From Candidatus Moraniibacteriota bacterium (GTDB lineage: Bacteria > Patescibacteriota > Minisyncoccia > Moranbacterales > GCA-2747515), in NCBI GenBank assembly GCA_027031495.1, contig JALVQA010000009.1, forward strand, positions 16,898 to 80,897: DNA of 64,000 nucleotides, in the 5' to 3' direction. Within the stretch, counting starts at the first letter, position 1. Each line of letters begins with the position of its first letter. Positions 25,029-62,188 of the stretch are shown one piece after another. Below the pieces are notes generated by a model, which searched no databases, was not told where the DNA came from, and was given only the letters and a program-made list of their open reading frames with translations. The position numbers and the translations under genes were made by a program.

Positions 25029-25613
25029 TTACAAATCTTTAACCTGGTCAATTTTGCGGTGCGCATTAAGCGTAGAAAAATGTGGTAGCTCTTGTGTTTT
25101 TGTAAGACCGAGATGTGAAAGAAAGTCGTGTGTTACGCGGTAGAGATAACTGCGTTTGTTCTGCTGATCCGGCACACGCTCAATCAAACCGCGCATGAGA
25201 AGTCCTCGTAGCGAAAACGAACAATTGACACCACGAATAGCGTCAATCTCCATCCGTGACACGGGTCCGCGATATGCAACAATAGCAAGCACCTCCAGCG
25301 CCGCTTTTGACAAGTCTTCGTTTACCGCATCGGAAAGCATTTTTTCAACAACCTTCTGTGTCTGTGGCGCCGTTGCCATTTGTATAGCATTATTATTCTC
25401 TACCAGAACCAAACCTCGCTTGTCGCGCTTCGCACAAGTTGTGTATGCATCAATTACATCATTCAGCTCCTTATCACTAAAGCCACACACTTTTGCGAGG
25501 CGCGTTTTTTTAACAGGATCGCCAAGCGTAAAAAGAACCGCTTCTAGTAGAGCCATGCGTTCTTTCATCTCATCGGTATCGTAGTTTTGTTGTTTTTGCT
25601 CTTTCTCTGTCAT
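25029..25613 (-). CDS. scpB: Segregation and condensation protein B
   Basis: Carries tandem winged helices matching ScpB: LEAVLFTLGDPV...LAIVAYRGPVSRMEIDAIRGVNCSFSLRGLLMRGLIE. Confidence 0.85.
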   Translation of the reverse strand: MTEKEQKQQNYDTDEMKERMALLEAVLFTLGDPVKKTRLAKVCGFSDKELNDVIDAYTTCAKRDKRGLVLVENNNAIQMATAPQTQKVVEKMLSDAVNEDLSKAALEVLAIVAYRGPVSRMEIDAIRGVNCSFSLRGLLMRGLIERVPDQQNKRSYLYRVTHDFLSHLGLTKTQELPHFSTLNAHRKIDQVKDL

Positions 25614-25637: not shown

Positions 25638-26351
25638 TTAGGACTTTTGACTATCACATTGTGTAATTGTAATATCGTCCGCCACCGCCTCTTGCGTCAC
25701 GAGTACAGCATTTTGCTTTACAAGTTCTAAGAGTGCGAGGAAAGAAACGATTACGTCACTGCGATCACGCGCATTTTTCACAAACTCTGAAAATGCCACT
25801 GTACCACGCTCTTTTAATGATCGCGTCAATGTCATAATACGTTCCTCCAGTGCAACAATTTCCTTCATGTGACGCTGATCAAGTTGTTCCACCGTCGGAA
25901 TTTCAGCTAAAACGCCACGAAAAAGATCCTCGCAGTCCTGCGACGTTATATGTGGTGGTACAAAAACAATCTGTCGCTTGCGTGGCGGCACATTACGCGT
26001 AAAACTTTTGCGCCCGTCAGTCCACATTTTTCCAAGCTTTTGTGCGATATCGGCATATTTCTTGTACTCCTCAAGCTGTAATTCAAGATCTTCAATTTCC
26101 TCCTCCTCTTCTTTCTCAAGAACAAGTAGTGGCAAGAGCGCTTTTGACTTCATCAAAATCAGCCGCGCTGCCATGGAAAGAAAGCCAGCCAAATTTTCAA
26201 GTGTGATATCCTCGCGATGCTCACGCAGATAACACAAATACTGCTCCGTCACTTCCGCAAGAGCTACTTCCGTAATACCAAGCTTTTTTTCTTCAATCAG
26301 TGCAAGTAGTAACTCCAGCGGGCCTTCAAATTTTTGAGTACGAAATTCCAT
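25638..26351 (-). CDS. scpA: Segregation and condensation protein A (kleisin)
   Basis: The N-terminus FEGPLELLLALIEEKKLGITEVALAEVTEQYLCYL is typical of ScpA. scpB follows immediately downstream. Confidence 0.85.
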   Translation of the reverse strand: MEFRTQKFEGPLELLLALIEEKKLGITEVALAEVTEQYLCYLREHREDITLENLAGFLSMAARLILMKSKALLPLLVLEKEEEEEIEDLELQLEEYKKYADIAQKLGKMWTDGRKSFTRNVPPRKRQIVFVPPHITSQDCEDLFRGVLAEIPTVEQLDQRHMKEIVALEERIMTLTRSLKERGTVAFSEFVKNARDRSDVIVSFLALLELVKQNAVLVTQEAVADDITITQCDSQKS

Positions 26352-27597: not shown

Positions 27598-28680
27598 TTA
27601 CCGCCGTTCTGATTGTTTTAACGCCGGCGCAATAAACCGCATTTTTTTCTTCATGAGCGCGCCAAGTCGTTGTGGATTTGCGCTTACGATGCTCAGCACA
27701 CGCTCAACATCTTCCTGCGTCAGATGACCTATATCAACTTCCTCCCCCAAAAGAGATTTCAATCTTTCATAATCGTGCTCAACCGTTTTGAATACTTTGC
27801 CAACGTCATCAACTGTTTGAAATGGCTTGTCGCATTTCATAAGAAGTGCGCGATCTTGTTCTGTGTATTTCTTGGCGTTTTCTCTAAGAAATTGTTCAAT
27901 AAGCGTCAGATTATGTCGCGACTGTATAAGGTAAGTAAAATTCTCTGTTGATGGCTGCCCACCTTCATTGAGAGAACCCATCATATCAATATACGATGCC
28001 AGTAGCATAAAATCTTGCTGGCGCTCCGAAAAACCGGTATCAACAAAGTGCTTTTTATATGTTTTCGGATTTACTTTTGCAAACTGATATGCTACTTCAT
28101 GTTTTCTTACTGCGTTGACAATTTCTTCCGGTACGTTTTCTCTTTGCAAAAGATCAGCGCCTTTATTACCGTGCTGACCAGCCGGACCTTTTGACATGTG
28201 ATAGTACGAAATGGATACAATTGCTCTTCTCTTAAATGTTTTTGCATCATCACTGCCATACTGTTGCCATTCATCCCACGTAATTTCACGTCCTCTGTAT
28301 TCACCCTCAAACTTCAACGTAAGACAATCCGGCTTTGCAATGTCGTGAAGAAATACATAGTCAATAAATTTACTGTCTATTACTTTATTCTCGTTATTAG
28401 ACACAAGTGCTCTAAACCTCTCGCGCATGTTAACTGGCACACTATCATGGAAGCGATCACGCGCTACATCATGGAGCGCATTTAAAACTAATTTAAGGTG
28501 AGCGTCCATTTTCGGACCTTCATTATGATACCGCCCTCGCTGCGGTGTTTCAAACGATCGTTCTATACGCTCCGCCAATTGCGGGTATCGTTCGCAAACA
28601 CTGCGAAGCGCTTGTTCAAAAGACGGCACTTGTATCTGTTCCTGTTTTGATGTGCAGGCATGCGGGTTTTCTATAGACAT
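27598..28680 (-). CDS. HD-domain phosphohydrolase (putative)
   Basis: A His (YHNEG...HLKLV) is followed by FLHDIAKP, which resembles the H...HD(IGK) metal-binding signature. Confidence 0.45.
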   Translation of the reverse strand: MSIENPHACTSKQEQIQVPSFEQALRSVCERYPQLAERIERSFETPQRGRYHNEGPKMDAHLKLVLNALHDVARDRFHDSVPVNMRERFRALVSNNENKVIDSKFIDYVFLHDIAKPDCLTLKFEGEYRGREITWDEWQQYGSDDAKTFKRRAIVSISYYHMSKGPAGQHGNKGADLLQRENVPEEIVNAVRKHEVAYQFAKVNPKTYKKHFVDTGFSERQQDFMLLASYIDMMGSLNEGGQPSTENFTYLIQSRHNLTLIEQFLRENAKKYTEQDRALLMKCDKPFQTVDDVGKVFKTVEHDYERLKSLLGEEVDIGHLTQEDVERVLSIVSANPQRLGALMKKKMRFIAPALKQSERR

Positions 28681-34347: not shown

Positions 34348-36102
34348 TTATACGCCAATCAACCATTTTAATTTTTCCAGACGCTCGTCCGCAATAGAAC
34401 GCAAAAATGTACGCACAAGCACCACCGCCGTAAACATAGATACCGTCACACCGATAAAGAGAATAATTGCAAAACCCTGTACGAACCCACTGCCCACACC
34501 AATGAGGATAAGACAGATCAAAAGCGTTGATATGTTACCGTCACGAATACTTGGCCATGCGCGCTCAAAACCAATCGCAACCGCACTCTTGAGTGTCTTG
34601 CCACGACGGCGCTCTTCTTTGATACGCTCAAAGACGAGGATATTTGCATCAACAGCCATACCAACAGAAAGGATGAAGCCGGCAATACCCGGCAGTGTCA
34701 GTGTGATTGCAAGACCACCAGGCAAAAGACCGGAGAGCTTAAAGATTGTTACAACCGTCATCGCATAAACAACGAGCGCTACCGCTGCAACAAAACCAAA
34801 AAAACGATAGTAAAAGATCATGTAAATCATTGTTAACGCAAGACCTGCCATACCGGCCTTAAGCCCTGCCTTAAGTGCTGTCGCACCAAGTGAAGCATCC
34901 ACCGATTGCTGGGATACAAGTGTGATCGGTACCGGCAACGCACCTTCGTTAAGACGTGATGCAAGCGCCTTTGCTTCTTGTGGCGTAAAGCTACCTGTGA
35001 TCTGTGCCTCACCATTCGTAATTTCCGCTTGAATAACCGGTGCGCTAATTAACTGGTTGTCAACAAAAATTGCAAAACGCTCACCAATATGCCCCTTTGT
35101 GATATCAGCAAACATTTTCGTGCCTTCATCGTTAAAATGAAGTAATACGCCCGGCTCGCTAATACCACTACGTGACGCACTACCGGGATCATAATCCGCA
35201 CTCTCCAACTGTGCCCCGGTAAGTTGCGTTGGTTTCCACATAAGATCTGGGAAATCGGCAACTGTACGTTTCGCTACGAGAATATGTCGCGCACGCACTT
35301 CCCGCACCTCTTCCGTTTCACCGGGAATATCTTCCCCTGTCAATTGATCCTTCTTTGGGCGCGTTTTTATGCGCTCATCCTCTTTCTTGATAATGTGCCA
35401 CCCGTACTGTGTTTCCACAAGTTTTGGATAGACGGCACCAACAGCAAAATCGTCACTAAAAAGCACCTTATCAAACGGCTCTACAAACACGCCTTGTTCT
35501 ACGAAGCCGAGATCCCCACCTTTCTCAGCGCTGGCACGATCATCACTATACTCTTTTGTCAACTTCTCAAAATCCTCACCACTCAGCGCGCGCTTAAGAT
35601 ACTCCTGGGCACGTTTATGTGCTTCTTCGTTGACTTTTTTGATAAACTCCTGTGTTTGTGGATCATCCGAAATATCCTCGCGAAAATCAAGAAACGGTGT
35701 CTCCTTAATAACAGCTTTTGCTGCGTCAATATCGCGAAGTCCTGGCAACTCTACAACAAGGCGCTGCTCATCGCCGGCTGTAATGCGCTGTACAATTGGC
35801 TCACCAACACCAAAAGCATTGACGCGCCGCTCCACAACGGCTTGCACAGCATCAAGTGCATGCGCTTTCTCATCTGCTGTCGTACCATTGCCATTGCCAT
35901 CGTGTATATCTGATAAATCAATTGCATATTCCAGGTGGATACCGCCCTGCAAATCAAGACCAAGATTAACCTTCAGTGCTGCCACTTTTTCACCAAGCCA
36001 TGGCACACGTGCAACAGTCTGCGGAAATGTAATCACGGTAACACATACAACAAAAAGGGCGATAAGGCCAAGAGCTATACGATTCTTTGTTCGTCGTTTC
36101 AT
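34348..36102 (-). CDS. secD: Protein-export membrane protein SecD
   Basis: Carries GLDLQGGIHLEYAIDL and a periplasmic domain followed by the RND-like six-TM region. It lies directly upstream of secF. Confidence 0.9.
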   Translation of the reverse strand: MKRRTKNRIALGLIALFVVCVTVITFPQTVARVPWLGEKVAALKVNLGLDLQGGIHLEYAIDLSDIHDGNGNGTTADEKAHALDAVQAVVERRVNAFGVGEPIVQRITAGDEQRLVVELPGLRDIDAAKAVIKETPFLDFREDISDDPQTQEFIKKVNEEAHKRAQEYLKRALSGEDFEKLTKEYSDDRASAEKGGDLGFVEQGVFVEPFDKVLFSDDFAVGAVYPKLVETQYGWHIIKKEDERIKTRPKKDQLTGEDIPGETEEVREVRARHILVAKRTVADFPDLMWKPTQLTGAQLESADYDPGSASRSGISEPGVLLHFNDEGTKMFADITKGHIGERFAIFVDNQLISAPVIQAEITNGEAQITGSFTPQEAKALASRLNEGALPVPITLVSQQSVDASLGATALKAGLKAGMAGLALTMIYMIFYYRFFGFVAAVALVVYAMTVVTIFKLSGLLPGGLAITLTLPGIAGFILSVGMAVDANILVFERIKEERRRGKTLKSAVAIGFERAWPSIRDGNISTLLICLILIGVGSGFVQGFAIILFIGVTVSMFTAVVLVRTFLRSIADERLEKLKWLIGV

Positions 36103-36857: not shown

Positions 36858-38138
36858 CTAAAATACCAATAATTCCGGCACAAAAATCATAATAACACCG
36901 AGCACAATCATAAGAATTGCGCCAACAAGCGTTGTCCACTTGTTATACTTCATTGTGTCGGAAAGGTGGCCTGCACCATAAAGTGCTGCAGCAAAGACGA
37001 CAATATCATCAATCATGTACGTAGCGATGTAAAGCAACATCTGAAACTGTGTTGCAAAAAAGCCGAGATCATTAAGTTCAAGAATTTTTGTATATGCTTG
37101 CGGAATACCAATACTGCACGCAAACTCAAAGATATTTACACTGAATGCAAGCATAATAATACCACCGGCCGTTGCAAGCGTGAGAGGGCGTTTGACAAGT
37201 TTTTCAACTCTGTGCGCCATCGTTTTTTGTTGCGATGCGTCAGTAACCGAGCAAACCGGCTTCCAAACAAGAAATCTCTTAAGAAAGTAGAGACCGCTTC
37301 CGAGCGCAAGAAAACCAACCAATGGCGTTACGATCCGTGAAAGACCAATAAAGTCCCATGTACTAAACCATGCCATCAAGATAAGCCAGTACATAATGGC
37401 CTCGGCAAGGATAAAGAGGCCGGCATACTGCCACATGCGCTTTTTTGAACCTGTTTGCAAAAGCAGCGTAAGAAAAACAATCAGCACCCACATCGCACAC
37501 GGATTGAACCCATCAACAAGGCCGAGAATAAGTGACACCGCCGGCAGTGGTAGTGTTGCCAAAGAAATTGTTGTACCAATAAATGGCAAGCGTACAACAA
37601 ACGCGTCTGTGTCACACCCTTTTGTCGGATCAGCATCACACACCTCAGCATCAACAAGTGATGATGCAACCGTCACAGGTGGCGCTGTTCCATCAAGAAT
37701 CGCATCAAAAGTTGTAGATACTTCACTTGTTTTAATAAGCTTCTCTATAAATGCACCTGTTGTCTGTGCCGTATCAAAACCGCTAAAGAGCGTCGTGCCA
37801 ACAAGCGTAATCGGCGTACCCTGTGAAAGACCAAATTTTTTTGTAATCACACTGAATTTTTCATACTCCTGTGGCACATCAATGTTATGATATCGTATAT
37901 CAATCTTCTTACCGTAGCGCTTTTTCAGCGTAGCAAGAAATGCTTTCAGCGCGATACAGTGTTTGCAGTCATCACGCACAAAAGCAGAGATGATGACAGT
38001 TGTATCATATCTTTGTGCAACACTTTCATGTGCAGCGCTACCTTCTTGTGCTACGACTGTTATCGGCGTAATAAAGAAAGTGATAGCAGCAACCGCACCT
38101 ATCAAGCTGCCTATTGTTACGAGAAAAATACGTTGCAT
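36858..38138 (-). CDS. Thioredoxin-like domain fused to CcdA/DsbD-type transmembrane thiol-disulfide transfer domain (putative)
   Basis: The N-terminal soluble domain carries CKHC (CxxC). The polytopic membrane domain has conserved Cys in helices (GFNPCAMWVL, FEFACSIGIP). Confidence 0.5.
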   Translation of the reverse strand: MQRIFLVTIGSLIGAVAAITFFITPITVVAQEGSAAHESVAQRYDTTVIISAFVRDDCKHCIALKAFLATLKKRYGKKIDIRYHNIDVPQEYEKFSVITKKFGLSQGTPITLVGTTLFSGFDTAQTTGAFIEKLIKTSEVSTTFDAILDGTAPPVTVASSLVDAEVCDADPTKGCDTDAFVVRLPFIGTTISLATLPLPAVSLILGLVDGFNPCAMWVLIVFLTLLLQTGSKKRMWQYAGLFILAEAIMYWLILMAWFSTWDFIGLSRIVTPLVGFLALGSGLYFLKRFLVWKPVCSVTDASQQKTMAHRVEKLVKRPLTLATAGGIIMLAFSVNIFEFACSIGIPQAYTKILELNDLGFFATQFQMLLYIATYMIDDIVVFAAALYGAGHLSDTMKYNKWTTLVGAILMIVLGVIMIFVPELLVF

Positions 38139-39983: not shown

Positions 39984-40946
39984 TTAATCCTTTTTTTGTT
40001 GTGGAAAAATGCTACTTAGATGCTCGTATATGTTAACAGCCCACTCTGTAATATCTTCCCTTCTCTTAAAATTGACATTATCAGGTATAAATATCTGAGG
40101 CGGGAACTTGACCCTCTTGACATCAAGAGGTTCCCTTCCAGTCCTTTCATAGAGATCATCTTCCCACTGTTCGATTGCATTTCTGTCAATATCTGCAAAC
40201 GCATGTGCAATGAATCTAATAGCCATATTAATATCACTCATCAAAGCATCATGTACTATGCTCCGCATTTTATCACGCATTCTAATCACACCTTGTTCGT
40301 CATTATCACTTCGGTAGATATTACCAGATCTTTCAAGTGCAGCGATCGCATCAATGTATCGCGGAATATCATTAGAAAATATTTGACGTAACATTTGCAG
40401 TGCTTCTTCTTTTTCTTTTGCTAATTGCTCCCATTCTTCCTCAGGGTGATCTCCTTCTTCTAATGTCGCACTTTTTATAAGACTTATAGCGTTTTTTACA
40501 TACTCTTCAGGAGTTTGTGGCATTTCTTTTTCATGATGGGACGCTGAGGTATCTCGCTTTTCGCTTTCTGTTTTAGTGGATACTGTGGCGATTTGAGGTT
40601 CTTCCCTACCAACATTTCTATCAGCGTTATATCTCTCTTCTTCTGTATCCTTATGTCGCATTTTAAACCTCATGTATCTCTCATACTCTTTACTACCCGG
40701 CGAAAATGGTGCATTGTGATAAAGTCTTAGCGTTCTTTGTATTCCTTTGGCTTCTTCGCGACGCAGTTTTCTTTCTTGTTCTTTATCTTCTTGAATTCTA
40801 TTGACATTTTCTTGCCCTTCTTGCTTGCTTTCTGCGGCATAACAATTAAGGCTTCCTCCAGCATGCTCATTGGAATAATTTCTACCGCCCTCTAAATACA
40901 TCATACTTTTAATGCTATGACTACATATTATTCTATACATGCTCAA
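39984..40946 (-). CDS. Hypothetical highly charged protein (320 aa)
   Basis: A long ORF in an AT-rich segment, rich in E/K/R. I recognise no family. Confidence 0.45.
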   Translation of the reverse strand: MSMYRIICSHSIKSMMYLEGGRNYSNEHAGGSLNCYAAESKQEGQENVNRIQEDKEQERKLRREEAKGIQRTLRLYHNAPFSPGSKEYERYMRFKMRHKDTEEERYNADRNVGREEPQIATVSTKTESEKRDTSASHHEKEMPQTPEEYVKNAISLIKSATLEEGDHPEEEWEQLAKEKEEALQMLRQIFSNDIPRYIDAIAALERSGNIYRSDNDEQGVIRMRDKMRSIVHDALMSDINMAIRFIAHAFADIDRNAIEQWEDDLYERTGREPLDVKRVKFPPQIFIPDNVNFKRREDITEWAVNIYEHLSSIFPQQKKD

Positions 40947-46144: not shown

Positions 46145-48271
46145 TTATCTAATCTTCTTTGCCAAAAGACGCTCACCATCTATAACTTGCATTGCAATTT
46201 TGTCCAATACTCTTTTATTAGTTTTAACCCACTCTTTCTTATTTATTTTGTCTTCACTATAACTGTTTAAAAATCTCTTATAAGAAATATACTTATAACC
46301 TAATTCATCAAAATCACCAATTTGTACTGTATCAACAATTGGAATAATATCATGCTGCAAATATTCTATAAGTTTGGTTGGGCAAGCTGCGCGATTCACA
46401 ATAACATCTTCACGCAACACGAGTCCAAAATCAGCCTTGTTGTACCAATATTTTACATCGTCTGGTCCGGCAGATATAACTATACCTGGAAATGATTCCC
46501 GAAACTTCTTAGTATAAATGTCTTTTAATTCATCTGGCTGAGGAACAAGAAATACAAAATCATATCTTTTCTGTAGAGAATGCACAAAATCAAGCATCTT
46601 GTGTACTTGTTGCCACTTCTGTAATCCGCCGCAATAGATAATAACTTCTTTATCTTTTATTGATTTCATTGTTGGCTTTGCGCTCCCGCTAGAGGAAGTC
46701 GGAAAGATTGGCAAAAGTAATATTCTTGATTTTTTAAGGAAAGAATACTTACATCTTAAGTGCTTTGCCATCATATTTGTGACAACAATAACTACATTAG
46801 CTCTTCTAATAGCAAATTTTTCTATTTCATTAAAATCTTTGTAGCCAATTTTGTCACCATGAAAGAGAAACTCTTCTGGAACAACACCGTGAACATCAAG
46901 AATTCTTTTTCTAGCAGTTCTGAAAAGAATTCTATGCAATTTAGAATTTAAACGAAGAATACTATGCAAATAAATCCTCCCAGAAAGAATGTGCACAATA
47001 AGAAGAGCAAGAAATCCTATCGGATTCTTCTTATTAATTGATATTTCAAAGGTGTTAGCATTAATTTTGTTAATCATTCTAAAATCATTGCGAGATATCT
47101 TCCCGGAATAGTATCTTACATAAAATTTTAGGTATACTGACAATATTTTATCGATAGCATTAACTCTCTGAAAGTAGCCATCTTTTAGATCATCTTCGGT
47201 AGGATAATGTACTAGAAATAATATTTTTCGCGTTAATACGATATATGATATCCTTTTGTATCGTATATGTATAAAACGCCATATTCTATTCAAAAGATTA
47301 TAGAAACGTAACGATGCTTTTATAAAAAGGCTATCGCATTTCTGAGTTATATTTGTTAAGTGATCGATTGTACTCACTATTATCTCGTAGTAGTTGTCAA
47401 AAACATTCTTCGCATACTTATCATCATTATGCGACAGTAGAAAATGCATATCTTGTTTGAAGCCAAGATATGGTAAAAGACTCCTGTCTTTCCAAGTAAT
47501 ATTGTGCTTATATTCAAATATAGTCTTATTCTTCTGCAAATGTCGCATTAGTTTGCGCACTGGAATTTGCGAAAAAGATGCGGTACCCCAATGGTATAAG
47601 AAAACGTCTCTTGCTATGTGCATTTTGAATCCTGCATTTAAAATGCGCAAACAATAATCATCGTCTTCGAACGCACCGCGCCCGAAAATCTCATCAAGAT
47701 ATCCCACCTTCAAAAATAGCTCACGCGTCCCGATAAAACAAAAAAAACCTAGAAAATTCGTTTCTTTTACAAAATTCTCAAATAAGATATACCTTTTTTG
47801 AGCAAATTTATTAATTTTTTCAAAGTTATTATCGCAAGAATCCAATTGTAAATCTGTAGCAATTGTTTGCTCATTTCCACAAGCATTTGTTACGGGACCA
47901 ATCGCATCAGAATCATGAGCAATTAGACGGTCTAGCCAGTAATCAGTAAGAATAACATCACTATTCAATAGGCAAATATGTGTAATATCATCTTCTTTAA
48001 GAAATTTTTTGATACCAATGTTGTTACCACCTGGAAAACCAGTATTATGATTCATTCGAATTAACTCATCGTCAAAATCGACGCGCTCTTTCTTTAATAA
48101 ATCAAACGCACGTTTAATTTTTTTAAATTCTGCCAATCTTGATGCATTGTCAATAACACAAATACTAAAACGTGTATCATTCTTTGCGCGCACCAAAGAA
48201 TCTAAACACTGCTCAACAACATCAGCTCTATTATAAGTGAGTATGACAATGCCAACTCTTATCTCATTCAT
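46145..48271 (-). CDS. Multidomain glycosyltransferase (N-terminal GT2 + C-terminal GT1/GT4-like)
   Basis: The GT2 motifs are VGIVILTYNR...VIDNAS, a DxD and FEDDDYCLR. The C-terminal part (about 230 aa) is Rossmann-like. The segment is very AT-rich. Confidence 0.8.
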   Translation of the reverse strand: MNEIRVGIVILTYNRADVVEQCLDSLVRAKNDTRFSICVIDNASRLAEFKKIKRAFDLLKKERVDFDDELIRMNHNTGFPGGNNIGIKKFLKEDDITHICLLNSDVILTDYWLDRLIAHDSDAIGPVTNACGNEQTIATDLQLDSCDNNFEKINKFAQKRYILFENFVKETNFLGFFCFIGTRELFLKVGYLDEIFGRGAFEDDDYCLRILNAGFKMHIARDVFLYHWGTASFSQIPVRKLMRHLQKNKTIFEYKHNITWKDRSLLPYLGFKQDMHFLLSHNDDKYAKNVFDNYYEIIVSTIDHLTNITQKCDSLFIKASLRFYNLLNRIWRFIHIRYKRISYIVLTRKILFLVHYPTEDDLKDGYFQRVNAIDKILSVYLKFYVRYYSGKISRNDFRMINKINANTFEISINKKNPIGFLALLIVHILSGRIYLHSILRLNSKLHRILFRTARKRILDVHGVVPEEFLFHGDKIGYKDFNEIEKFAIRRANVVIVVTNMMAKHLRCKYSFLKKSRILLLPIFPTSSSGSAKPTMKSIKDKEVIIYCGGLQKWQQVHKMLDFVHSLQKRYDFVFLVPQPDELKDIYTKKFRESFPGIVISAGPDDVKYWYNKADFGLVLREDVIVNRAACPTKLIEYLQHDIIPIVDTVQIGDFDELGYKYISYKRFLNSYSEDKINKKEWVKTNKRVLDKIAMQVIDGERLLAKKIR

Positions 48272-48282
48272 AGTGTATTTTT

Positions 48283-50622
48283 TTATAAAAGCTCTTTATA
48301 TAATTTATCGTACTGTTTTGACATATTTTCTACAGTATATTTCTCCTTGATTTTTTTGCGTCCTTGCAATGCTTTTTTGCGCCATGTTGTATGATTACGA
48401 TACATCGCAACCATAGCATTTTTAATGCTATCGATATTCTTAATATTTTTATCGTTAGTATAAAAATTATGCACATCTTTTGGAGATATATCTGAGACAT
48501 CATTATACGGATTATCTACTATAATGCCAATGTCAGAATCATTAATTACATCTCTTGCAGATCCAATATCCGACAAAATCATTGGCAACTGCGCATACAT
48601 TGCCTCTAAAACAGCAATGCTACAACCTTCAATAAGTGATGGCATAATAAAACAGTCTGACATCTGTAATATGCTCATAACCTTTTTCTTCGGCATATAT
48701 TTCATAATGCGAATATTTTTGTCGAGATGCCGTTTTTTAATCTCACTTGCTATATAATCATAGCATGATTTGTCCAAAATATTGCCCATAAAAATCATTT
48801 TGAACTTTGGATATTTTTCAATGAGCCGATCCATTGCAACGACCATGCTAATATGGAATTTATGCCAGTTAAATGAAGCAATATTAATAAAGATAAAATC
48901 ATCTTCAGAAAATCCATATACATCACGGCATCCTTTTTCAAAATTTTTCACTAAATCTACATTGATACCATTTAATATAACAGAAATGTTATCTTTTTCG
49001 ATATGAAATTTTTCTGTGAAGTATTCCTTTACCTGACTTGAAACAGCAACAAACCGATCAATGCCCGCATAAAACCTCTTTCTAGATTTAATAAATTCTT
49101 TGTCAGCCCAGATATAGTTGTTATGTATCGTGTAGACACTTTTAATACCCAATTTTCTATATATATCGAAACCAAAATCACTGTAGTGAAAATGTATAAT
49201 ATCGGGTCGGTATTTATTTAGCACTTTCTTTAAAAGAAACCTGTTTCCATGTAGATTAATTACGTTAATTCCGCTTTTTTTTGCAACTTTTTCCATGTAC
49301 CCATTCTTACCAAATGATGCAATTACACAAACATTGTAGGTTTCTTTAAGTGAACGAGCCAGAGCAAAGACAACCTCTTCTAATCCACCTTTATCAAAAG
49401 AATGCACTTGCAAAAAAATTAATTTCGCTTTTCTTTCATTAAAATGTAAACGTTGTTGATTTATTGACAAAAGAGCGTGAAAGAATAAAATACCATTTTT
49501 TATGTTGGTTAAAGGCACATACTTCATTAAACAAAAATTCTTGGTTTTTTCTTTGCAATGCCTTACAAAGATATTCGGTTTCTTTATAACTCTCGTAATA
49601 TTTTTTTTATAACGAACGTACACATTTCTCAATTGCCAAAATTTTGATGATTTCATATATCGAATTTCAAAATCTTTCTGTGCATTCACTTTTTCTTGCT
49701 CAGCTATCTGTTTTGAGAGTTGTGCATTCACTTTTTCTTGCTCAGCTATCTGTTTTGAGAGTTGTGCATTCACTTTTTCTTGCTCAGCTATCTGTTTTGA
49801 GAGCTTATTTATTTGTTCCAAAAGAATGTAGAATTTTTCATCTCTTTTTGTTCCTTTGTTTAAAAAGGCATCACTTGCAAGATTAACAACGTCTTCATAA
49901 CTAAAATCATCACTACCAGTCAAAAAAACCACCTTATTATGACGTAATTTATCACTGATAAAATTAGCTATTTCTCGTTGCTTTGCGCTATCCGTATAAT
50001 CAATATTTAAAAAATCACAAACTCTTCGTAATTCTTTATGCGCATCAACAAAATAGTTATCAAAGAATGTAAAAATCCTATCTTTGCCTTTCGTGTATTT
50101 TAAAATTGATCTAATATACGTTAACCACAACATTATACCATCGTCCAGGTTAATGCCATCACGCTTGTGTAATGACGCCGCTACATTTGCTGGATGCCTA
50201 ACAGGAATCACATATTTCATATGCGGAATAACTTTTTGCCAAAAAGGAAGCGTCAACGACGTTCTCGGCTCCTTAAATCCCCAAATTTCATGTGCACCAT
50301 TCATTTTTTTAACAACTTCTCGTGCTCTTTCATACAACTGATTTAATCTCTTATCGTCTTCCCATTTATCAAGAAGTCTTGGCGGCATGTCCCACGTACC
50401 GCCAAAGGTTTCGAGTATCTTTTCATTAATATGAAGAATTTCTATATTCTCCCAATGTCCCTTTATATTTTCACTATAACTCTTTGTCATGATGTTTTTC
50501 TCATCACCAAGAGATAGGCCACAAATATTCAAAAGGCGTGTTATCATTGACGTACCACTTCTGTGCATTCCCAGTATACAGACAACTGTATTCTCTTTCC
50601 TGTTCATAATTTTGTTCAGCAT
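48283..50622 (-). CDS. Sulfotransferase-glycosyltransferase (GT4) fusion protein with tandem-repeat coiled-coil linker
   Basis: The N-terminal domain has a PAPS 5'-PSB loop (GMHRSGTSM) and a 3'-PB motif (VRHPANVAAS). The linker is LSKQIAEQEKVNAQ x3. The C-terminal GT4 has the EX7E-type motif (PSLIEGCSIAVLEAMYAQLPMI). I chose the start at an internal Met to avoid overlap with sat. Confidence 0.8.
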   Translation of the reverse strand: MLNKIMNRKENTVVCILGMHRSGTSMITRLLNICGLSLGDEKNIMTKSYSENIKGHWENIEILHINEKILETFGGTWDMPPRLLDKWEDDKRLNQLYERAREVVKKMNGAHEIWGFKEPRTSLTLPFWQKVIPHMKYVIPVRHPANVAASLHKRDGINLDDGIMLWLTYIRSILKYTKGKDRIFTFFDNYFVDAHKELRRVCDFLNIDYTDSAKQREIANFISDKLRHNKVVFLTGSDDFSYEDVVNLASDAFLNKGTKRDEKFYILLEQINKLSKQIAEQEKVNAQLSKQIAEQEKVNAQLSKQIAEQEKVNAQKDFEIRYMKSSKFWQLRNVYVRYKKNITRVIKKPNIFVRHCKEKTKNFCLMKYVPLTNIKNGILFFHALLSINQQRLHFNERKAKLIFLQVHSFDKGGLEEVVFALARSLKETYNVCVIASFGKNGYMEKVAKKSGINVINLHGNRFLLKKVLNKYRPDIIHFHYSDFGFDIYRKLGIKSVYTIHNNYIWADKEFIKSRKRFYAGIDRFVAVSSQVKEYFTEKFHIEKDNISVILNGINVDLVKNFEKGCRDVYGFSEDDFIFINIASFNWHKFHISMVVAMDRLIEKYPKFKMIFMGNILDKSCYDYIASEIKKRHLDKNIRIMKYMPKKKVMSILQMSDCFIMPSLIEGCSIAVLEAMYAQLPMILSDIGSARDVINDSDIGIIVDNPYNDVSDISPKDVHNFYTNDKNIKNIDSIKNAMVAMYRNHTTWRKKALQGRKKIKEKYTVENMSKQYDKLYKELL
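49681..49806. repeat. Three perfect 42-nt tandem repeats inside the sulfotransferase-GT4 gene
   Basis: tgcattcactttttcttgctcagctatctgttttgagagttg occurs three times, identical at the nucleotide level. It encodes a 14-aa heptad-like repeat. Confidence 0.9.
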
Positions 50623-50626
50623 TTTA

Positions 50627-51694
50627 TCAATCAACAAATATGCTTTTTCTACTCTCCAAATACGCCACAACCTCTTTCCGCATAAATTTATCAGGAATTT
50701 CTTCTTTTTCGATCAGTCTGCGACGCAACTCTGTACCGGATAAAAAGACTTTGTCATCATCTGTGTGCGGACACGTACCATCAGGCGTCATGTTCTCACA
50801 CTTTTTACAATAACACACATTGTTATATTTGAATATTTTAATACAAAGTTCATCCTCACGAAACCGCTTGAAAATATTTTGTGCATCATACGTACCATAA
50901 TAATTGCCGACACCGGCATGGTCGCGTCCGATAATCATGTGCGTGCACCCAAAATTTTTCCGTACTTGCGCATGGAAAACAGCCTCACGCGGACCGGCAT
51001 AGCGCATATAGGTGTGAAATGTTGACAATTCAACCGTATCTTTTTTGTAGTAGCGCTCAATGAGAATGTTATAAGCGCCGATGATGTATTCATCCTTGAT
51101 ATCACCTTCCTTTTTTGGCCCGATAACCGGTTGAATAAGGAGACCATCTACCTGTGCTAGAGCACGTTTTTGCAAGAATTCATGTGAGCGGTGTGGTGGG
51201 TTGCGTGTTTGAAACGCAACAATATGCGTCCAAGCGTGTTTCTTAAAGATCTCCTTCATTTCTGCCGGTGTTTTGTAGTATGGATACGTATTTTTAAATT
51301 CGCGCCCGACAACACGATCTACGTTGCCGCCGACAAAGTATTCCTTCAATCCATATAACCGCGCAACGCCGGGATGTTTTTTGTCGGTTGTGCCATAAAG
51401 TGCCTGCGCCATGCGATCACGATCAATTTTATAGATACTTGGTTTGGAAATATAGAACTGTTTACCTTCTCTGTTTTCAATAATAAAATCGTTGTCACCA
51501 ATCTCTTCTTTTTGCTCACGTGTTATGTCAAGAATAATTGGCATCGCCCATATGCGTCCATCTGTCAGACGGAAATGTGTGGCAATGCTCTCAAAATCGT
51601 CCTTGCCCGTAAAACCTTTTAGTGGCGCGTAAACACCATCAGCAATATTGCACGCCTCTTGCATGACAACATCATCAACAAGTATTTTCTTCAT
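50627..51694 (-). CDS. sat: Sulfate adenylyltransferase (ATP sulfurylase, homo-oligomeric Sat type)
   Basis: Carries QTRNPPHRSHE and GRDHAG motifs. Confidence 0.9.
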   Translation of the reverse strand: MKKILVDDVVMQEACNIADGVYAPLKGFTGKDDFESIATHFRLTDGRIWAMPIILDITREQKEEIGDNDFIIENREGKQFYISKPSIYKIDRDRMAQALYGTTDKKHPGVARLYGLKEYFVGGNVDRVVGREFKNTYPYYKTPAEMKEIFKKHAWTHIVAFQTRNPPHRSHEFLQKRALAQVDGLLIQPVIGPKKEGDIKDEYIIGAYNILIERYYKKDTVELSTFHTYMRYAGPREAVFHAQVRKNFGCTHMIIGRDHAGVGNYYGTYDAQNIFKRFREDELCIKIFKYNNVCYCKKCENMTPDGTCPHTDDDKVFLSGTELRRRLIEKEEIPDKFMRKEVVAYLESRKSIFVD

Positions 51695-58277: not shown

Positions 58278-60593
58278 CTAAGTACTTTGTGGTGGAGGCG
58301 CCACAGAAGCATCATCTTTAATATCGTCAATCTTGACACTTAAGAGTCGCGACACACCATCTTGGTTCATTGTAACACCATAAAGTACTGATGCATGACG
58401 CATTGTTTCGCGATTATGCGTAATAGTAACAAACTGCGTTTTTTTAGAGAGTGCCTTAAGGATATTACCAAAACGACGCGCGTTGGACTCATCAAGTGCT
58501 GCCTCCACCTCATCCAACACAACAAACGGTGGCGGGTTAAAAGCAATAACAGCAAATAGTAATGCTAGTGACACGAGCGAGCGCTCACCGCCGGAAAGTT
58601 GCGCAAGACTATTTACGCGCTTACCCGGTGGTGTTGCGCTGATAGCAATACCAATTTGAACATCGTCATCTTTTTTTACAGTACTCTCGTCATCTTCTGT
58701 GACATCTTCGCTTGCTTGCACGTTCTGATGACGTGGCGCAAATGTCACTTTCTTCAAAGACGCTTTCCCACTGCCAAACATCATGCGGAAGTAGAGACCG
58801 AACTCGTTATTTATGAAGCTGAACGCTTTCTTAAATGCCTTATCAATTTCTTGGTCCATCTCTTTAATGACCGTCACTAAATCAACAATGGCACGTTGCA
58901 AATCATCATATTCTTGCGTTAAGAAATCGTATCGCTCCTGTGTTTCTTTATACTCATCAATAACCAATGGGTCAATTGTGCCAATGGATTCGTGTTGCAC
59001 CTTAAGACGCGCTACACGTTGCTCAAGGTGTGCCTCATCTTCTACCGGTTCGCATACGCACGCCTCAAGATCTTCCGGCGTCATATTGAGCTCTGTCATA
59101 ATGAGACGCTTCAAATCTTCTTCACGCACTTCCACGCGCGCAAGGCGAATTTTTGCTTCGTTATATGCGTCGCGTAAGGCATTGAGTGCACGTTCTTTGT
59201 CACGCAAAACACGTTCTTGTTCAAAAAATGCGGCGCGTGCGGCACGCTCTGCTGCCGCACCATCAGCGAGCTTTTTATCAACAGCCACCAAAGCCGCCTC
59301 ATACTTTGCAATACGCTCTTCTACGGTAGCACGTTTTTGTGTAATCGCGAGAATTTTTTCATCGCCTTCTTTGCGAATACGCTCTTTTTGTGCGCGCGTG
59401 TCAACTTCCACGCTACCACGCTCAACATCAGCATTCAATGACACAATGGCCTTGCGCGCTTTGGCAAGAGCATTTTTAAGAATCTCAACATTCATTTTTT
59501 CATTCTGCAGAACACTGTCTATATTTTTTGCCATTGTATCGAGATGTGCGCGCACATACTGCGAATCTACCGGTACGCGTGATTTAAGCGCTGCGATTTC
59601 TCGCGCGATACGCTCGCGCTCCAATGCCATATGTCCTTCAATAATCGCCAGCTCTTTGCGTGCAGCCGCAAGCTTATCACCGATAACACGCTTCTCTTTG
59701 AGAAGTTCCGCATCTCCCGCTGATGCGCGCGCTTCCATCTTTTGCGCCTGCATGCGCAATTCATGCGAAAGTGCATCCACTTCTTTCTGTGCACTTTGAA
59801 GTGCGGCATTACGCTGTTCAAGTTCTTTCAGTGCAGAAGACTGTTCTGTTTTAAATGCATTCCATCGCCATTGATAAAGTTGTTTCTGCCTCTCCGTGAG
59901 TTCCTTCGCAACATCTTCCGCCTTTGCCGCACGATCCGCTTGACGCTTCAGCATTTTTAAATGTGGCTCAATTTCCTGAATAAGACCCGCAACACGCTCA
60001 AGATTGACGCGCGTACTATCAAGTTTTGTTAACGCGCGTTGTTTCTTAATCTGAAATGGTCGCACACCGGCGGCATCCTCAATAATTCGCCGTCGGTCCA
60101 ATGGCGTTGCACTCAAGAATGCATCTGTCATGCCCTGTGTGATAATACTGTAACTTCCCTTACCAAGACCAATGTGTGCAAGCAAATCAACAACATCAAG
60201 GAGACGTGCTTTTGCACCGTTTATATGGTATTCTCCCGAACCATCACGATAGACTGTACGTGAGACAACCACATCACCAAACTCCACCGGCATGCTACCA
60301 TCCGTGTTGTCAAAGTAAAGCGCAACAGATGCTGTATTCATTTTACGTTGTGTACTACTACCGGCAAAAATAACGTCGTCAGACTTTTTTGAGCGCAGAC
60401 TTTTCATTGACTGCTCACCCATCACCCACCGAATTGCATCCGCCACATTTGATTTACCGCTACCATTTGGTCCAACAATTGCCGTAATGCCATAGTGTCG
60501 CGCACCGTTAATCGTGTGCATCGCCGCCGTAAAATCAATCGTCGTTTTCTGCGCAAATGACTTAAAGCCGTGTAATTCAATCTTTTTGAGAAA
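58278..60593 (-). CDS. smc: SMC-family chromosome segregation ATPase, unusually short (about 770 aa) with no recognisable hinge
   Basis: The N-head reads KKIELHGFKSFAQKTTIDF...IVGPNGSGKSNVADAIRWVMGEQS. The C-head reads LSGGERSLVSLALLFAVIAF...VLDEVEAALDE...FVTITHN. The middle of about 440 aa is all coiled coil, with no GRxTFLPL-type hinge. Confidence 0.8.
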   Translation of the reverse strand, partial: FLKKIELHGFKSFAQKTTIDFTAAMHTINGARHYGITAIVGPNGSGKSNVADAIRWVMGEQSMKSLRSKKSDDVIFAGSSTQRKMNTASVALYFDNTDGSMPVEFGDVVVSRTVYRDGSGEYHINGAKARLLDVVDLLAHIGLGKGSYSIITQGMTDAFLSATPLDRRRIIEDAAGVRPFQIKKQRALTKLDSTRVNLERVAGLIQEIEPHLKMLKRQADRAAKAEDVAKELTERQKQLYQWRWNAFKTEQSSALKELEQRNAALQSAQKEVDALSHELRMQAQKMEARASAGDAELLKEKRVIGDKLAAARKELAIIEGHMALERERIAREIAALKSRVPVDSQYVRAHLDTMAKNIDSVLQNEKMNVEILKNALAKARKAIVSLNADVERGSVEVDTRAQKERIRKEGDEKILAITQKRATVEERIAKYEAALVAVDKKLADGAAAERAARAAFFEQERVLRDKERALNALRDAYNEAKIRLARVEVREEDLKRLIMTELNMTPEDLEACVCEPVEDEAHLEQRVARLKVQHESIGTIDPLVIDEYKETQERYDFLTQEYDDLQRAIVDLVTVIKEMDQEIDKAFKKAFSFINNEFGLYFRMMFGSGKASLKKVTFAPRHQNVQASEDVTEDDESTVKKDDDVQIGIAISATPPGKRVNSLAQLSGGERSLVSLALLFAVIAFNPPPFVVLDEVEAALDESNARRFGNILKALSKKTQFVTITHNRETMRHASVLYGVTMNQDGVSRLLSVKIDDIKDDASVAPPPQST

Positions 60594-60690
60594 CATGTAT
60601 TCTGTATTTAGGCAAATCACTAAGACGCCCAAGACCTCTAGGCGCGTATACGCCTATTGTACAGTATTTTGCATTAGATGCAAAAATGCA

Positions 60691-60912: not shown

Positions 60913-61455
60913 TTAACGTGTCTTAAATGATCCTGTGCAATAATCATGATCTGGGCTTTTCCGAACATTATCCCACCCAAACCTATCACATATATCTATA
61001 TTATCGCGACCAACATAAGCATATAAGACAATAGCATTAAGAAAGTAACCACCGTGCCCTGCATACGTCGGCCAATAATACATAACCAAGCTATAATTAT
61101 CATTTATAGGTGATGGGGCAGCCCTTGTAAATGCATCAGCTCCAAATACAGCATCTATACGACTTTGGTATGCATTTGTTTCCCAATAACCACTTCCGCC
61201 CCAACAGTGTCCTGTTTTAGTGCGACCGACACACCCGCGCAAGTATGTAACATCATCTAATCCTCCGCTCTCTGCAACACCTTTTATTAGTCGTGATGCA
61301 TTTGATACATAAGCAATGTAACGAGCTTCCTTTGCCTTAAAACGTGCACTGGAAAGACTTACCAACACAATACTTGCAAGAATGCCAATAATGGCAATAA
61401 CAATGAGTAACTCAATGAGTGTAAATCCCTGTTTTTCTTTTTGTATTTTGGCCAT
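60913..61455 (-). CDS. Type IV pilin / pseudopilin (prepilin-type N-terminal cleavage/methylation domain)
   Basis: Carries [29 protein letters not shown], which is the class III signal with G|FTLIE. Confidence 0.8.
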
Positions 61456-61498
61456 GTGTACATTATACAACAGACATTAAAAATAGTGACGCACGTCT

Positions 61499-62188
61499 CT
61501 ACTGCCACTGCATTGTGTCAAGTGCTGCCTGTGCTGCCGTACGTTGCGCTTCCTGCTTTGATCGCCCTGCACCTTTGGCGATGAGATCGTTACCAATGTA
61601 TGCACCTACAATAAAATTCTTGTCATGGTCTGGCCCGCTCTCGTCCAAAACTTCGTAATGTGGTGTTGTTCTACGGTGCTTTTGTGCTTGTTCTTGGAAA
61701 TAACTCTTTGGATCACGATAGAGTTTGTTTTCAATTACTTCGTCAAGATGAACGATGATGTGATTTAGAATAAAAGAGCGCGCGGCGTCATAGCCCTGAT
61801 CACGATAGATTGCACCGATAATTGCCTCAACCGCATTTGCCAGTATATGGTGACGTGCACGCGAATTGCTATCTTGCGCTTCACCCTTACTCATACGTAA
61901 AATATCATTAACACCCAATTCTTGTGCAACACGCGCTAACATATCAGTATTCACAAGCGATGCGCGCCATGCCGTCAGTTCACCTTCCGGATTGTTGTAG
62001 TGTGTATAGAGATAATCTGTTACAATAAGCTCCAAGACCGCATCGCCGAGAAACTCAAGGCGCTCATTGTGACCACGCTTGTACGTACGATCTTCATTAA
62101 GATATGAGCGGTGTGTCAACGCCTGCTCTAAAAGACCCTTATCATCAAATGCAACACCTATTCTCTGTGCAAATTCTTCAATTGTCAT
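61499..62188 (-). CDS. rnc: Ribonuclease III
   Basis: The RNase III signature is ERLEFLGDAVLELIV. A C-terminal dsRBD is present. Confidence 0.9.
   Translation of the reverse strand: MTIEEFAQRIGVAFDDKGLLEQALTHRSYLNEDRTYKRGHNERLEFLGDAVLELIVTDYLYTHYNNPEGELTAWRASLVNTDMLARVAQELGVNDILRMSKGEAQDSNSRARHHILANAVEAIIGAIYRDQGYDAARSFILNHIIVHLDEVIENKLYRDPKSYFQEQAQKHRRTTPHYEVLDESGPDHDKNFIVGAYIGNDLIAKGAGRSKQEAQRTAAQAALDTMQWQ

What the first reader, a model, noticed from the sequence alone, without database searches (positions are those of the whole stretch)
58278..60632. Hinge-less mini-SMC
Head domains are unmistakably SMC: an N-terminal Walker A with a FKSY-like motif, and a C-terminal LSGGE signature plus D-loop. 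The whole protein is only about 770-784 aa, however. The inter-head region of about 440 aa is continuous coiled coil, with no glycine-rich hinge and no zinc hook. ScpA and ScpB are encoded elsewhere in the window (25.0-26.4 kb). So this is probably the organism's condensin, which would then have half-length arms and a non-canonical apex.
Basis: partly seen in the sequence, partly recalled or inferred. Interest (0 to 1): 0.6.

Follow-up and report, generated by a model that had tools for sequence, protein, structure and literature searches.

The report
Hinge-less short-armed SMC of CPR bacteria
This gene encodes a real chromosome-organising SMC ATPase, typical of a large group of tiny-genome (CPR/Patescibacteria) bacteria, whose arms are half the usual length and whose hinge domain is replaced by a small, conserved, uncharacterised tip module.

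Summary
ORF 58278-60596(-) (772 aa from the ATG; 784 from the upstream TTG) is an SMC. It scores above the NCBIfam SMC equivalog cut-off, has every ATPase motif, and sits in nusB-rnc-smc synteny with ScpA and ScpB in the same window. No hinge is found by Pfam, by a custom hinge HMM with positive controls, or by profile-profile comparison. There is no CxxC hook.

It is not an assembly artefact. The 120 closest homologues are all 763-794 aa and hinge-less. Among the 150 best 50%-identity cluster representatives, 143 are hinge-less, in two length classes (~715-790 and ~845-915 aa).

Residues ~338-399 form a conserved strand-helix-helix-strand module (invariant P342, V343, D344; G394 in 118 of 120) that breaks the heptad pattern. 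AlphaFold models it confidently, and it has no significant PDB match. A profile of it finds the tip of 99 of 156 hinge-less SMCs and 0 of 58 hinge-bearing ones.

Arms are 170 + 170 aa, against 344 in Bacillus. That is close to a natural arm-length mode reported in 2017.

Dimerisation through the tip module is inferred, not shown. A hinge-less SMC clade was published in 2025 for marine Actinobacteria, so I rate this a new variant of a known kind.

The parts
58278..60596 (-). smc gene, 772 aa from the ATG (the TTG at 60632 would add 12 residues that homologues lack)
   Evidence: ORF. TIGR02168 638 bits, above the 567 cut-off. SMC_N E=3e-68. Homologue N-termini.
60096..60596 (-). N-terminal half of the ATPase head (residues 1-167). 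Includes GFKSF, Walker A (60450-60473) and the Q-loop, plus a clade-specific 11-aa beta-hairpin insertion at residues 24-34.
   Evidence: Alignment to the B. subtilis Smc head 5xg3. N-head HMM matches positions 1-154 to residues 1-165. AF2 strands 26-29 and 32-35.
59586..60095 (-). N-terminal arm strand (residues 168-337, 170 aa)
   Evidence: AF2 gives a single helix 179-336. 3.5-residue hydrophobic periodicity is strong at about 250-305.
59400..59585 (-). Apex module in place of the hinge (residues 338-399): beta 340-342, helix 345-364, loop, helix 370-393, beta 395-397. P342, V343 and D344 are invariant or nearly so; Y347 and G394 are nearly invariant. The conserved EGR motif (320-322) and invariant E328 lie just upstream in the arm.
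   Evidence: Conservation. Heptad periodicity lost and hydrophobic fraction 0.33-0.43 against 0.18-0.26 in the arms. AF2 on residues 286-451: pLDDT 89.6, pTM 0.63. No PDB match at E<=0.001. HHalign against the hinge: probability 0.1%. The iterated profile hits 99 of 156 hinge-less and 0 of 58 hinge-bearing SMCs.
58890..59399 (-). C-terminal arm strand (residues 400-569, 170 aa), including the head-proximal joint discontinuity at 58968-59087 (residues 504-543)
   Evidence: AF2 helices 401-503, 507-511, 521-538 and 544-607. The best Foldseek hit is 5xei, the Pyrococcus Smc head with coiled coil and joint.
58278..58889 (-). C-terminal half of the ATPase head (residues 570-772). Includes signature LSGGE (58584-58598), Walker B plus D-loop (58491-58526) and H727, plus a disordered acidic ~30-aa insertion (58662-58751).
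   Evidence: AF2 pLDDT is below 50 at residues 622-644. C-head HMM.
25638..26351 (-). scpA (kleisin), 237 aa
   Evidence: PF02616 E=6e-28, covering the whole profile
25029..25613 (-). scpB, 194 aa
   Evidence: PF04079 E=4e-43
61499..62188 (-). rnc (RNase III) upstream of smc; the order nusB-rnc-smc is conserved
   Evidence: Pfam. The same order nusB-rnc-smc-secY-pgk occurs in the 74%-identical relative P0002.

Best explanation
This is the chromosomal Smc subunit of an Smc-ScpAB condensin in a Candidatus Moranbacteria-like (CPR/Patescibacteria) bacterium.

Shown:
- The protein keeps a complete, presumably active SMC ATPase head.
- It keeps the head-proximal joint.
- It keeps the head-proximal half of the coiled-coil arm, 170 aa per strand, which I calculate as about 25 nm.
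- The hinge-proximal half of the arm and the whole ~170-aa hinge are absent.
- In their place is a conserved 62-aa strand-helix-helix-strand module.

Inferred:
- Two protomers are held together at this tip module, for example by pairing of the two-stranded sheets or by packing of the helical hairpins into a four-helix bundle.
- ScpA bridges the neck of one head and the cap of the other, and ScpB binds ScpA.
- The result is a closed ring or rod that is half size. ATP-driven head engagement would then load it onto DNA and translocate it (loop extrusion) as in B. subtilis.

This architecture is the norm in a large part of the CPR. It comes in two sharply defined arm-length classes (about 161-171 and 225-235 aa). 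These lie near arm-length modes already seen in hinge-bearing SMCs, which suggests the hinge was swapped for the small module without disturbing arm-length tuning.
For: SMC identity:
- TIGR02168 scores above its cut-off.
- The Bs Smc head matches at 1e-107 with about 50% identity.
- The fold matches Smc head plus joint structures.
- All ATPase motifs are intact.

Partners and context:
- ScpA and ScpB are in the window.
- nusB-rnc-smc synteny is conserved.
- The neighbourhood is housekeeping genes: topA, dprA, mreB, secDF, secY, pgk.

Hinge absent:
- Pfam finds none, while the positive control L064 gives hinge E=6e-30.
- A custom hinge HMM separates 7 hinge-bearing representatives (E<=1e-30) from 143 without (best E=0.017).
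- HHalign of the tip profile against the hinge profile gives probability 0.1%.

Real and widespread:
- The 120 closest homologues are 763-794 aa.
- Colinear 717-771-aa forms occur in Uhrbacteria, Azambacteria, Saccharibacteria and other Patescibacteria MAGs.
- The representatives show a trimodal length distribution.

What is retained:
- The protein maps to positions 1-~330 and ~850-1187 of a full-length Smc profile.

Tip module:
- Conserved, non-heptad and hydrophobic.
- Confident AF2 model.
- Its profile is specific to hinge-less SMCs and always hits at relative position 0.44-0.49 of the protein.

Arm lengths:
- 170/170 aa here.
- Class medians are 161 and 225.5 aa with 10-90% spreads under 10 aa.
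- The same measure gives 344 for Bacillus-type and ~240 for hinge-bearing CPR SMCs.
- These compare with the published natural modes of 163, 238 and 341 (PMC5344682).

Precedent:
- The B. subtilis hinge can be functionally replaced by a Rad50 zinc hook, and shortened arms can work (PMC5344682).
Against: - Dimerisation at the tip is not shown.
- Only 64 kb of the genome is visible, so a second, hinge-bearing SMC elsewhere cannot be excluded.
- Proteins named Candidatus Buchananbacteria include both hinge-bearing and hinge-less forms. I could not tell whether the two ever share a genome.
- The tip profile fails to detect 57 of 156 hinge-less proteins, including the Saccharibacteria and Azambacteria ones. 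The module may not be universal.
- A rough neighbour-joining tree of the heads did not resolve the hinge-less forms as one clade.
- No function has been tested experimentally in any CPR organism.
Confidence: 0.72

Rival explanations
1. It is a true Smc-ScpAB subunit, but the tip does not dimerise. Two protomers would be joined only at the heads, through ATP and the ScpA/ScpB bridge, giving an open V or clamp rather than a closed ring. DNA would be held only in the head/kleisin compartment.
For: No dimer evidence could be obtained. The tip module is small (62 aa) and has no significant structural relative among known dimerisation domains. Its hydrophobic surplus could be satisfied by packing against the ends of the arm helices, where conserved LII/IVI clusters lie at residues 316-325.
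Against: The module is strongly conserved, with invariant P342, V343 and D344 across 120 sequences at about 47% overall identity. That is more than a simple chain reversal needs. As I recall, every characterised SMC-like protein (SMC, MukB, Rad50/SbcC, RecN) has a dimerising apex. Arm lengths are held within a few residues, which is expected if two arms must align in register.
Confidence: 0.15
2. It is a specialised paralogue, for example for repair or defence, that coexists with a canonical hinge-bearing Smc encoded outside the window. ScpAB would then serve the other protein.
For: Only 64 kb is visible. Both hinge-bearing and hinge-less SMCs carry the name Buchananbacteria. PADLOC's mad3 model, an SMC-head model from the MADS defence system, matches at 1e-60.
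Against: The score for the chromosomal SMC equivalog is far higher (E=2.5e-191 against 1e-60). No defence or repair partner genes are adjacent, and the gene sits in the rnc-smc position among housekeeping genes. The closest hinge-bearing relatives are only 35-45% identical, which is no closer than expected for orthologues in other CPR classes. The published marine hinge-less clade did not co-occur with regular SMC in single-cell genomes (PMC12153180). As I recall, CPR genomes of about 1 Mb rarely keep such paralogues.
Confidence: 0.1
3. It is an artefact: an assembly deletion or a decaying pseudogene that lost its middle.
For: None beyond the short length.
Against: The frame is intact. The 120 closest homologues listed, from NCBI, JGI, ENA and Logan assemblies, have the same length and architecture. 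The deleted region is replaced by a conserved module under clear constraint. Arm strands are exactly balanced at 170/170.
Confidence: 0.01

Closest known systems
Bacterial Smc of Smc-ScpAB (B. subtilis type; TIGR02168, PDB 5xg3/3zgx heads)
   Same: Head sequence is about 50% identical in the aligned blocks, with all ATPase motifs. The joint, the antiparallel arm, ScpA and ScpB partners, and the rnc-smc gene order are all shared.
   Different: There is no hinge domain (PF06470). Arms are 170 aa per strand instead of 344. A 62-aa strand-helix-helix-strand tip stands in the hinge's place. Each head half carries a clade-specific insertion.
Engineered Mini-Smc and Smc(zinc hook) chimeras of B. subtilis (Buermann et al. 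2017, PMC5344682)
   Same: These have shortened arms that work only in certain length regimes, and a hinge replaced by an unrelated dimerisation module. The natural protein's arm length (161-171 aa, depending on where the tip boundary is set) lies at the paper's minor natural mode of 163 aa.
   Different: This protein is natural and widespread, not engineered. The tip has no CxxC and no similarity to the Rad50 hook. The 2017 survey located arms by aligning a hinge, so I infer hinge-less proteins would have been excluded from it.
Marine 'hinge-less' SMC clade assigned to Actinomycetes (Sussfeld et al. 2025, PMC12153180)
   Same: SMC-type heads (COG1196), an antiparallel coiled coil, no hinge and no CxxC. 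The clade is abundant and monophyletic in ocean metagenomes and was judged not to be a paralogue.
   Different: It comes from a different lineage (reported as actinobacterial and oceanic, against CPR here). In the passages I retrieved by term search, the paper does not report a conserved tip module, arm-length classes, or hinge loss in CPR, and it does not mention ScpA or kleisin. I did not test whether the two groups are related.
RecN / Rad50-SbcC / MukB (SMC-like proteins with non-canonical apices)
   Same: All have an ABC-type head, an antiparallel coiled coil, and a small apex instead of the SMC hinge.
   Different: Head similarity is far weaker: RecN TIGR00634 47 bits and Rad50 26 bits, against SMC 638 bits. 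There is no zinc hook. No significant structural match of the tip to any PDB chain, which includes these proteins. The partners here are ScpA and ScpB, not Mre11/SbcD or MukEF.

Membership tests
Bacterial SMC (Smc-ScpAB condensin; TIGR02168 / Pfam SMC_N + SMC_hinge) | ABC-type SMC head split between the N and C termini, with Walker A, Q-loop, signature LSGGE, Walker B, D-loop and H-loop | tested here: met
Bacterial SMC (Smc-ScpAB condensin; TIGR02168 / Pfam SMC_N + SMC_hinge) | Whole-protein score above the curated equivalog cut-off | tested here: met
   638.3 bits against a cut-off of 567.35, in two stretches that skip the hinge
Bacterial SMC (Smc-ScpAB condensin; TIGR02168 / Pfam SMC_N + SMC_hinge) | Long intramolecular antiparallel coiled-coil arm with a head-proximal joint | tested here: met
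   AF2 helices 179-336 and 401-607 with a break at 504-543. Top fold hit is 5xei. The length is half the canonical one.
Bacterial SMC (Smc-ScpAB condensin; TIGR02168 / Pfam SMC_N + SMC_hinge) | Central glycine-rich hinge dimerisation domain (PF06470) | tested here: not met
   Absent by Pfam, by a custom hinge HMM with positive controls, and by HHalign at probability 0.1%
Bacterial SMC (Smc-ScpAB condensin; TIGR02168 / Pfam SMC_N + SMC_hinge) | Kleisin ScpA and ScpB encoded in the genome | tested here: met
   PF02616 and PF04079 at 25.0-26.4 kb. Physical interaction was not tested.
Bacterial SMC (Smc-ScpAB condensin; TIGR02168 / Pfam SMC_N + SMC_hinge) | Homodimer closed at the apex; ATP-dependent DNA loading and translocation | not testable with these tools
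Biochemistry is required.
Rad50/SbcC | CxxC zinc hook at the coiled-coil apex; Mre11/SbcD partner | tested here: not met
   The only cysteines are C513 and C515, in the joint. CxxC occurs in the middle of 0 of 77 short-class and 1 of 66 longer-class hinge-less representatives. The Rad50 model scores 26 bits.
RecN | RecN-type head and about 550-aa architecture (TIGR00634) | tested here: not met
   46.8 bits against a cut-off of 407.85
Defence SMC-like ATPases (Wadjet JetC, Lamassu LmuB, MADS mad3) | Best match to the defence model, and a cognate operon (JetABD, LmuA/C, other mad genes) next to the gene | tested here: not met
   mad3 1e-60, LmuB 2e-16 and JetC 4e-10 are all far weaker than SMC at 2.5e-191. 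The neighbours are rnc, secY and pgk.
Hinge-less CPR Smc family (proposed here) | SMC head, plus balanced arms of about 161-171 or 225-235 aa, plus a central strand-helix-helix-strand module matching the tip profile | tested here: met
   The window protein itself matches the iterated tip profile only weakly (11.6 bits, residues 325-387). It belongs to the alignment that seeded the profile.

The most novel reading that the evidence does not exclude
A large part of the Candidate Phyla Radiation runs its chromosomes with a natural 'mini-condensin'. This would be Smc-ScpAB whose canonical hinge has been replaced by a previously undescribed ~60-75-aa dimerisation fold, with arms quantised at about 165 or 230 aa. 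If so, neither the hinge (as DNA gate or DNA-binding site) nor a ~50-nm arm is required for SMC function in vivo, and a minimal natural loop extruder would be available for structural and single-molecule work.
Probability: 0.5. Interest if true: 0.75.

Novelty: new variant of a known kind. Interest (0 to 1): 0.62.

Why it matters
The hinge and the ~50-nm arms are treated as hallmarks of SMC complexes. The hinge is proposed as a DNA entry gate, a DNA-binding site and an obstacle-bypass gate.

A widespread natural Smc-ScpAB without a hinge and with half-length arms would show which of these roles are dispensable. It would give an evolutionary counterpart to the engineered Mini-Smc and zinc-hook chimeras. 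It would support the idea that arm length is tuned in discrete steps. It would also offer a compact complex that is easier to study by cryo-EM and single-molecule methods.

There is an annotation consequence too. Domain-based pipelines label these proteins 'AAA family ATPase', and surveys that locate the hinge to measure arms would miss them.

Tried and rejected
1. AlphaFold on a tandem fusion of two tip segments, to test dimerisation.
3. Foldseek of the tip model against the PDB. It returned only generic antiparallel coiled coils, none at E<=0.001.
4. Exact look-up of the window protein's own contig. Not on record, so the rest of the genome could not be inspected.
5. Looking up Buchananbacteria hinge-bearing and hinge-less proteins, to test whether both occur in one genome. 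They came from different assemblies, so the test was uninformative.
6. Neighbour-joining tree of the head domains, to ask whether hinge loss happened once. No clean split appeared, and the method is too crude to conclude anything.
7. The Moranbacteria-only tip profile against other CPR short SMCs found only close relatives. Iteration extended it to 99 of 156 proteins but not to Saccharibacteria or Azambacteria.
8. Literature searches for hinge-less SMC in CPR, Patescibacteria, Parcubacteria or Saccharibacteria found nothing. A phrase search found the 2025 marine study.
9. Considered and rejected: zinc hook, RecN, defence SMC-like systems, assembly artefact. See the membership tests and rival explanations.
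Full report
**1. The observation**

The window holds an uninterrupted minus-strand ORF at 58278..60632, 784 aa from a TTG. All homologues start MYLKK or MFLKK, so the ATG at 60596 is the probable start and the protein is 772 aa.

- GFKSF at residues 10-14
- Walker A GPNGSGKS at 42-49
- Q154
- LSGGE at 667-671
- Walker B plus D-loop FVVLDEVEAALD at 691-702
- H727

Pfam gives SMC_N from residue 2 to 749 (E=2.8e-68) and no SMC_hinge. NCBIfam's chromosomal SMC equivalog TIGR02168 scores 638 bits, above its 567-bit cut-off. RecN, Rad50 and the archaeal SMC-related model reach only 26-48 bits. Crystal structures of the B. subtilis Smc head match at 1e-107. ScpB (25029-25613) and ScpA (25638-26351) are confirmed.

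**2. It is not an artefact**

The 120 best homologues, from NCBI, JGI, ENA and Logan assemblies, are all 763-794 aa, and none carries PF06470. The named ones are Candidatus Moranbacteria or Parcubacteria.

A scan of GTDB species genomes found colinear hinge-less SMCs of 717-771 aa in MAGs labelled Uhrbacteria, Azambacteria, Saccharibacteria and Patescibacteria. A 982-aa Bacilli SMC in the same Pfam batch showed the hinge at E=6e-30, which serves as a positive control.

I also ran an exhaustive HMMER search of 1.84 billion cluster representatives. The 150 best fall into three length groups: 77 of 700-799 aa, 66 of 800-924 aa and 7 of 975-1049 aa. A hinge HMM built from 41 full-length SMCs detects the seven long ones at E<=1e-30. 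None of the other 143 scores better than E=0.017.

A second homology search, seeded with a hinge-bearing 1002-aa relative, shows that Patescibacteria also contain hinge-bearing SMCs of about 1000-1050 aa, named Buchananbacteria, Falkowbacteria and Magasanikbacteria. It also returned hinge-less proteins of about 875-930 aa.

**3. What is retained and what is missing**

Against a profile of full-length (~1187-position) SMCs, the window protein aligns to positions 1-311 and 759-1185. Its relatives align to 1-~330/360 and ~850-1187. Nothing aligns to the hinge.

AlphaFold2 on the family alignment gave mean pLDDT 80.6 and these elements:
- the head
- one 158-residue helix, 179-336
- a strand, 340-342
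- helices 345-364 and 370-393
- a strand, 395-397
- helix 401-503
- a joint-like break, 504-543
- helix 544-607 leading into the C-terminal half of the head

The best structural matches are Smc head, coiled-coil and joint crystal structures (5xei, 5xg3).

I set head boundaries equivalent to B. subtilis residues 156 and 1016. That choice reproduces the published 344-aa arm for Bacillus-type SMCs. By the same measure the arm strands here are 170 and 170 aa, which is half length. At 0.148 nm per residue I calculate about 25 nm.

**4. The apex is a module, not plain coiled coil**

In the 120-sequence alignment, the 3.5-residue hydrophobic periodicity is strong at about 250-305 and 410-470. It collapses between about 308 and 400. 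There the fraction of strongly hydrophobic residues rises to 0.33-0.43, against 0.18-0.26 in the arms.

This zone contains E328, V343 and D344 (invariant), P342 (119 of 120), G321 and G394 (118 of 120) and Y347 (113 of 120). It also has extra conserved aromatic residues at e/g-type positions of both short helices.

AlphaFold2 on residues 286-451 alone gave the same strand-helix-loop-helix-strand topology, with pLDDT 89.6 and pTM 0.63. Foldseek against the PDB found no match at E<=0.001, only generic antiparallel coils. HHalign of the tip profile against the hinge profile gave probability 0.1%. There is no CxxC.

A profile of the module, iterated to convergence, recognises 57 of 88 short-class proteins and 42 of 68 longer-class hinge-less proteins. 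In the first-round hits listed, the significant matches all lay at relative position 0.44-0.49. It recognises 0 of 58 hinge-bearing SMCs.

So the module is homologous across both hinge-less length classes. The Saccharibacteria and Azambacteria proteins escape the profile. Their tips may be too diverged, or they may be different.

**5. Arm-length quantisation**

For the proteins with a tip-profile hit, mean arm length is sharply bimodal. The medians are 161 aa (10-90%: 157.5-167) and 225.5 aa (221-229.5). With the narrower strand-to-strand definition of the tip, each value rises by about 10 aa.

Hinge-bearing CPR SMCs measure about 240 aa and Bacillus-type ones 344 aa.

Buermann et al. 2017 reported natural prokaryotic arm-length modes at 238, 341 and 515 aa, with minor ones at 163 and 423. 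They showed that only certain arm lengths work in B. subtilis, and that the hinge can be replaced by a Rad50 zinc hook (PMC5344682). Their survey required an alignable dimerisation domain, so I infer it would have excluded hinge-less proteins.

The hinge-less classes therefore lie near known modes. The longer class has about the same arm as hinge-bearing CPR SMCs. This pattern is what one would expect if the hinge was exchanged for the small module without changing arm length, and the arms were then shortened by about 64 aa per strand in lineages such as this one. That history is inference. A crude neighbour-joining tree did not resolve it.

**6. Function**

The gene sits in the order nusB-rnc-(pilin-like gene)-smc-secY-pgk. 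The 74%-identical relative has nusB-rnc-smc-secY-pgk. By my recollection, rnc directly upstream of smc also matches the B. subtilis rnc-smc-ftsY operon.

The surroundings are housekeeping genes: pth, dprA, topA, relA/spoT, PBP2, mreB, secDF, tyrS. Defence-system models match far more weakly than the SMC equivalog, and no defence partners are nearby.

The best-supported reading is the organism's Smc-ScpAB condensin, closed at the apex by the new module.
- Shown: SMC identity, intact motifs, hinge absence, tip conservation, arm length, presence of the partner genes.
- Inferred: tip dimerisation, ring closure, loop extrusion, and that this is the only SMC in the genome.

**7. Novelty**

Literature searches for hinge-less SMC in CPR, Patescibacteria, Parcubacteria or Saccharibacteria returned nothing.

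A 2025 study did describe an abundant marine 'hinge-less' SMC clade assigned to Actinomycetes. It lacks CxxC, and it did not co-occur with regular SMC in single-cell genomes (PMC12153180). In the passages retrieved, that study reports no tip module and no arm-length classes; it does not contain the terms ScpA or kleisin, and it does not report hinge loss in CPR.

The present finding is therefore a new variant of a known kind. The concept of a hinge-less SMC is not new. As far as the searchable literature shows, three things are new: the breadth of hinge loss across the CPR, the conserved tip module, and the two arm-length classes.

**8. Limits**

- No dimer model or coordinates could be obtained.
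- The rest of the genome could not be reached.
- Co-occurrence with a hinge-bearing SMC is untested.

Noticed in passing
window 60913-61470 (-): A type IV pilin-like gene (N-terminal methylation motif) lies between rnc and smc. The 74%-identical relative has rnc directly followed by smc, so this looks like a lineage-specific insertion into a conserved gene order.
   Followed up: partly
window 46145-50670 (-): A low-GC island (GC 0.31-0.33 against about 0.45 elsewhere). It encodes a 708-aa GT2 glycosyltransferase and a 795-aa sulfotransferase plus GT4 fusion, so it may be a horizontally acquired surface-glycan cluster.
   Followed up: no
window 34348-36102 (-): SecD carries an inserted PpiC-type peptidyl-prolyl isomerase (rotamase) domain at residues ~153-242, in addition to its P1 and membrane domains.
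   Followed up: no
window 5322-8675 (-): A 1117-aa ORF with no Pfam family at E<=0.001. ORFs at 4552-5310, 27598-28680, 36858-38138 and 39984-40946 also have none.
   Followed up: no
window 58662-58751 and 60495-60527 (-): Two clade-specific insertions in the SMC head. One is a disordered acidic ~30-aa loop (residues 616-645, pLDDT below 50). The other is an 11-aa beta-hairpin before the Walker A motif (residues 24-34). Both are absent from B. subtilis Smc.
   Followed up: partly
L048:6001-8643 (Anaerolineae MAG DAOUAL010000053.1): An 881-aa SMC outside the CPR that also lacks the hinge by Pfam. It maps to full-length profile positions 1-408 and 781-1185 and is not hit by the CPR tip profile. 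It could be an independent hinge loss, a mis-binned contig or a deletion.
   Followed up: partly
L011:6001-8288 (Patescibacteria MAG JAHJAM010000010.1): The SMC match covers query residues 1-764, but under table 11 the frame stops after 89 codons. That fits an alternative genetic code in this lineage, or a frameshift.
   Followed up: no
proteins P0289, P0315 (hinge-bearing, ~1020-1030 aa) and P0345, P0381 (hinge-less, ~890-895 aa): Both architectures carry the source name Candidatus Buchananbacteria. Whether any single genome encodes both was not resolved.
   Followed up: partly
protein P0337 (892 aa): A rare hinge-bearing SMC with arms of only about 176 aa. Short arms therefore also occur with a canonical hinge.
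   Followed up: no
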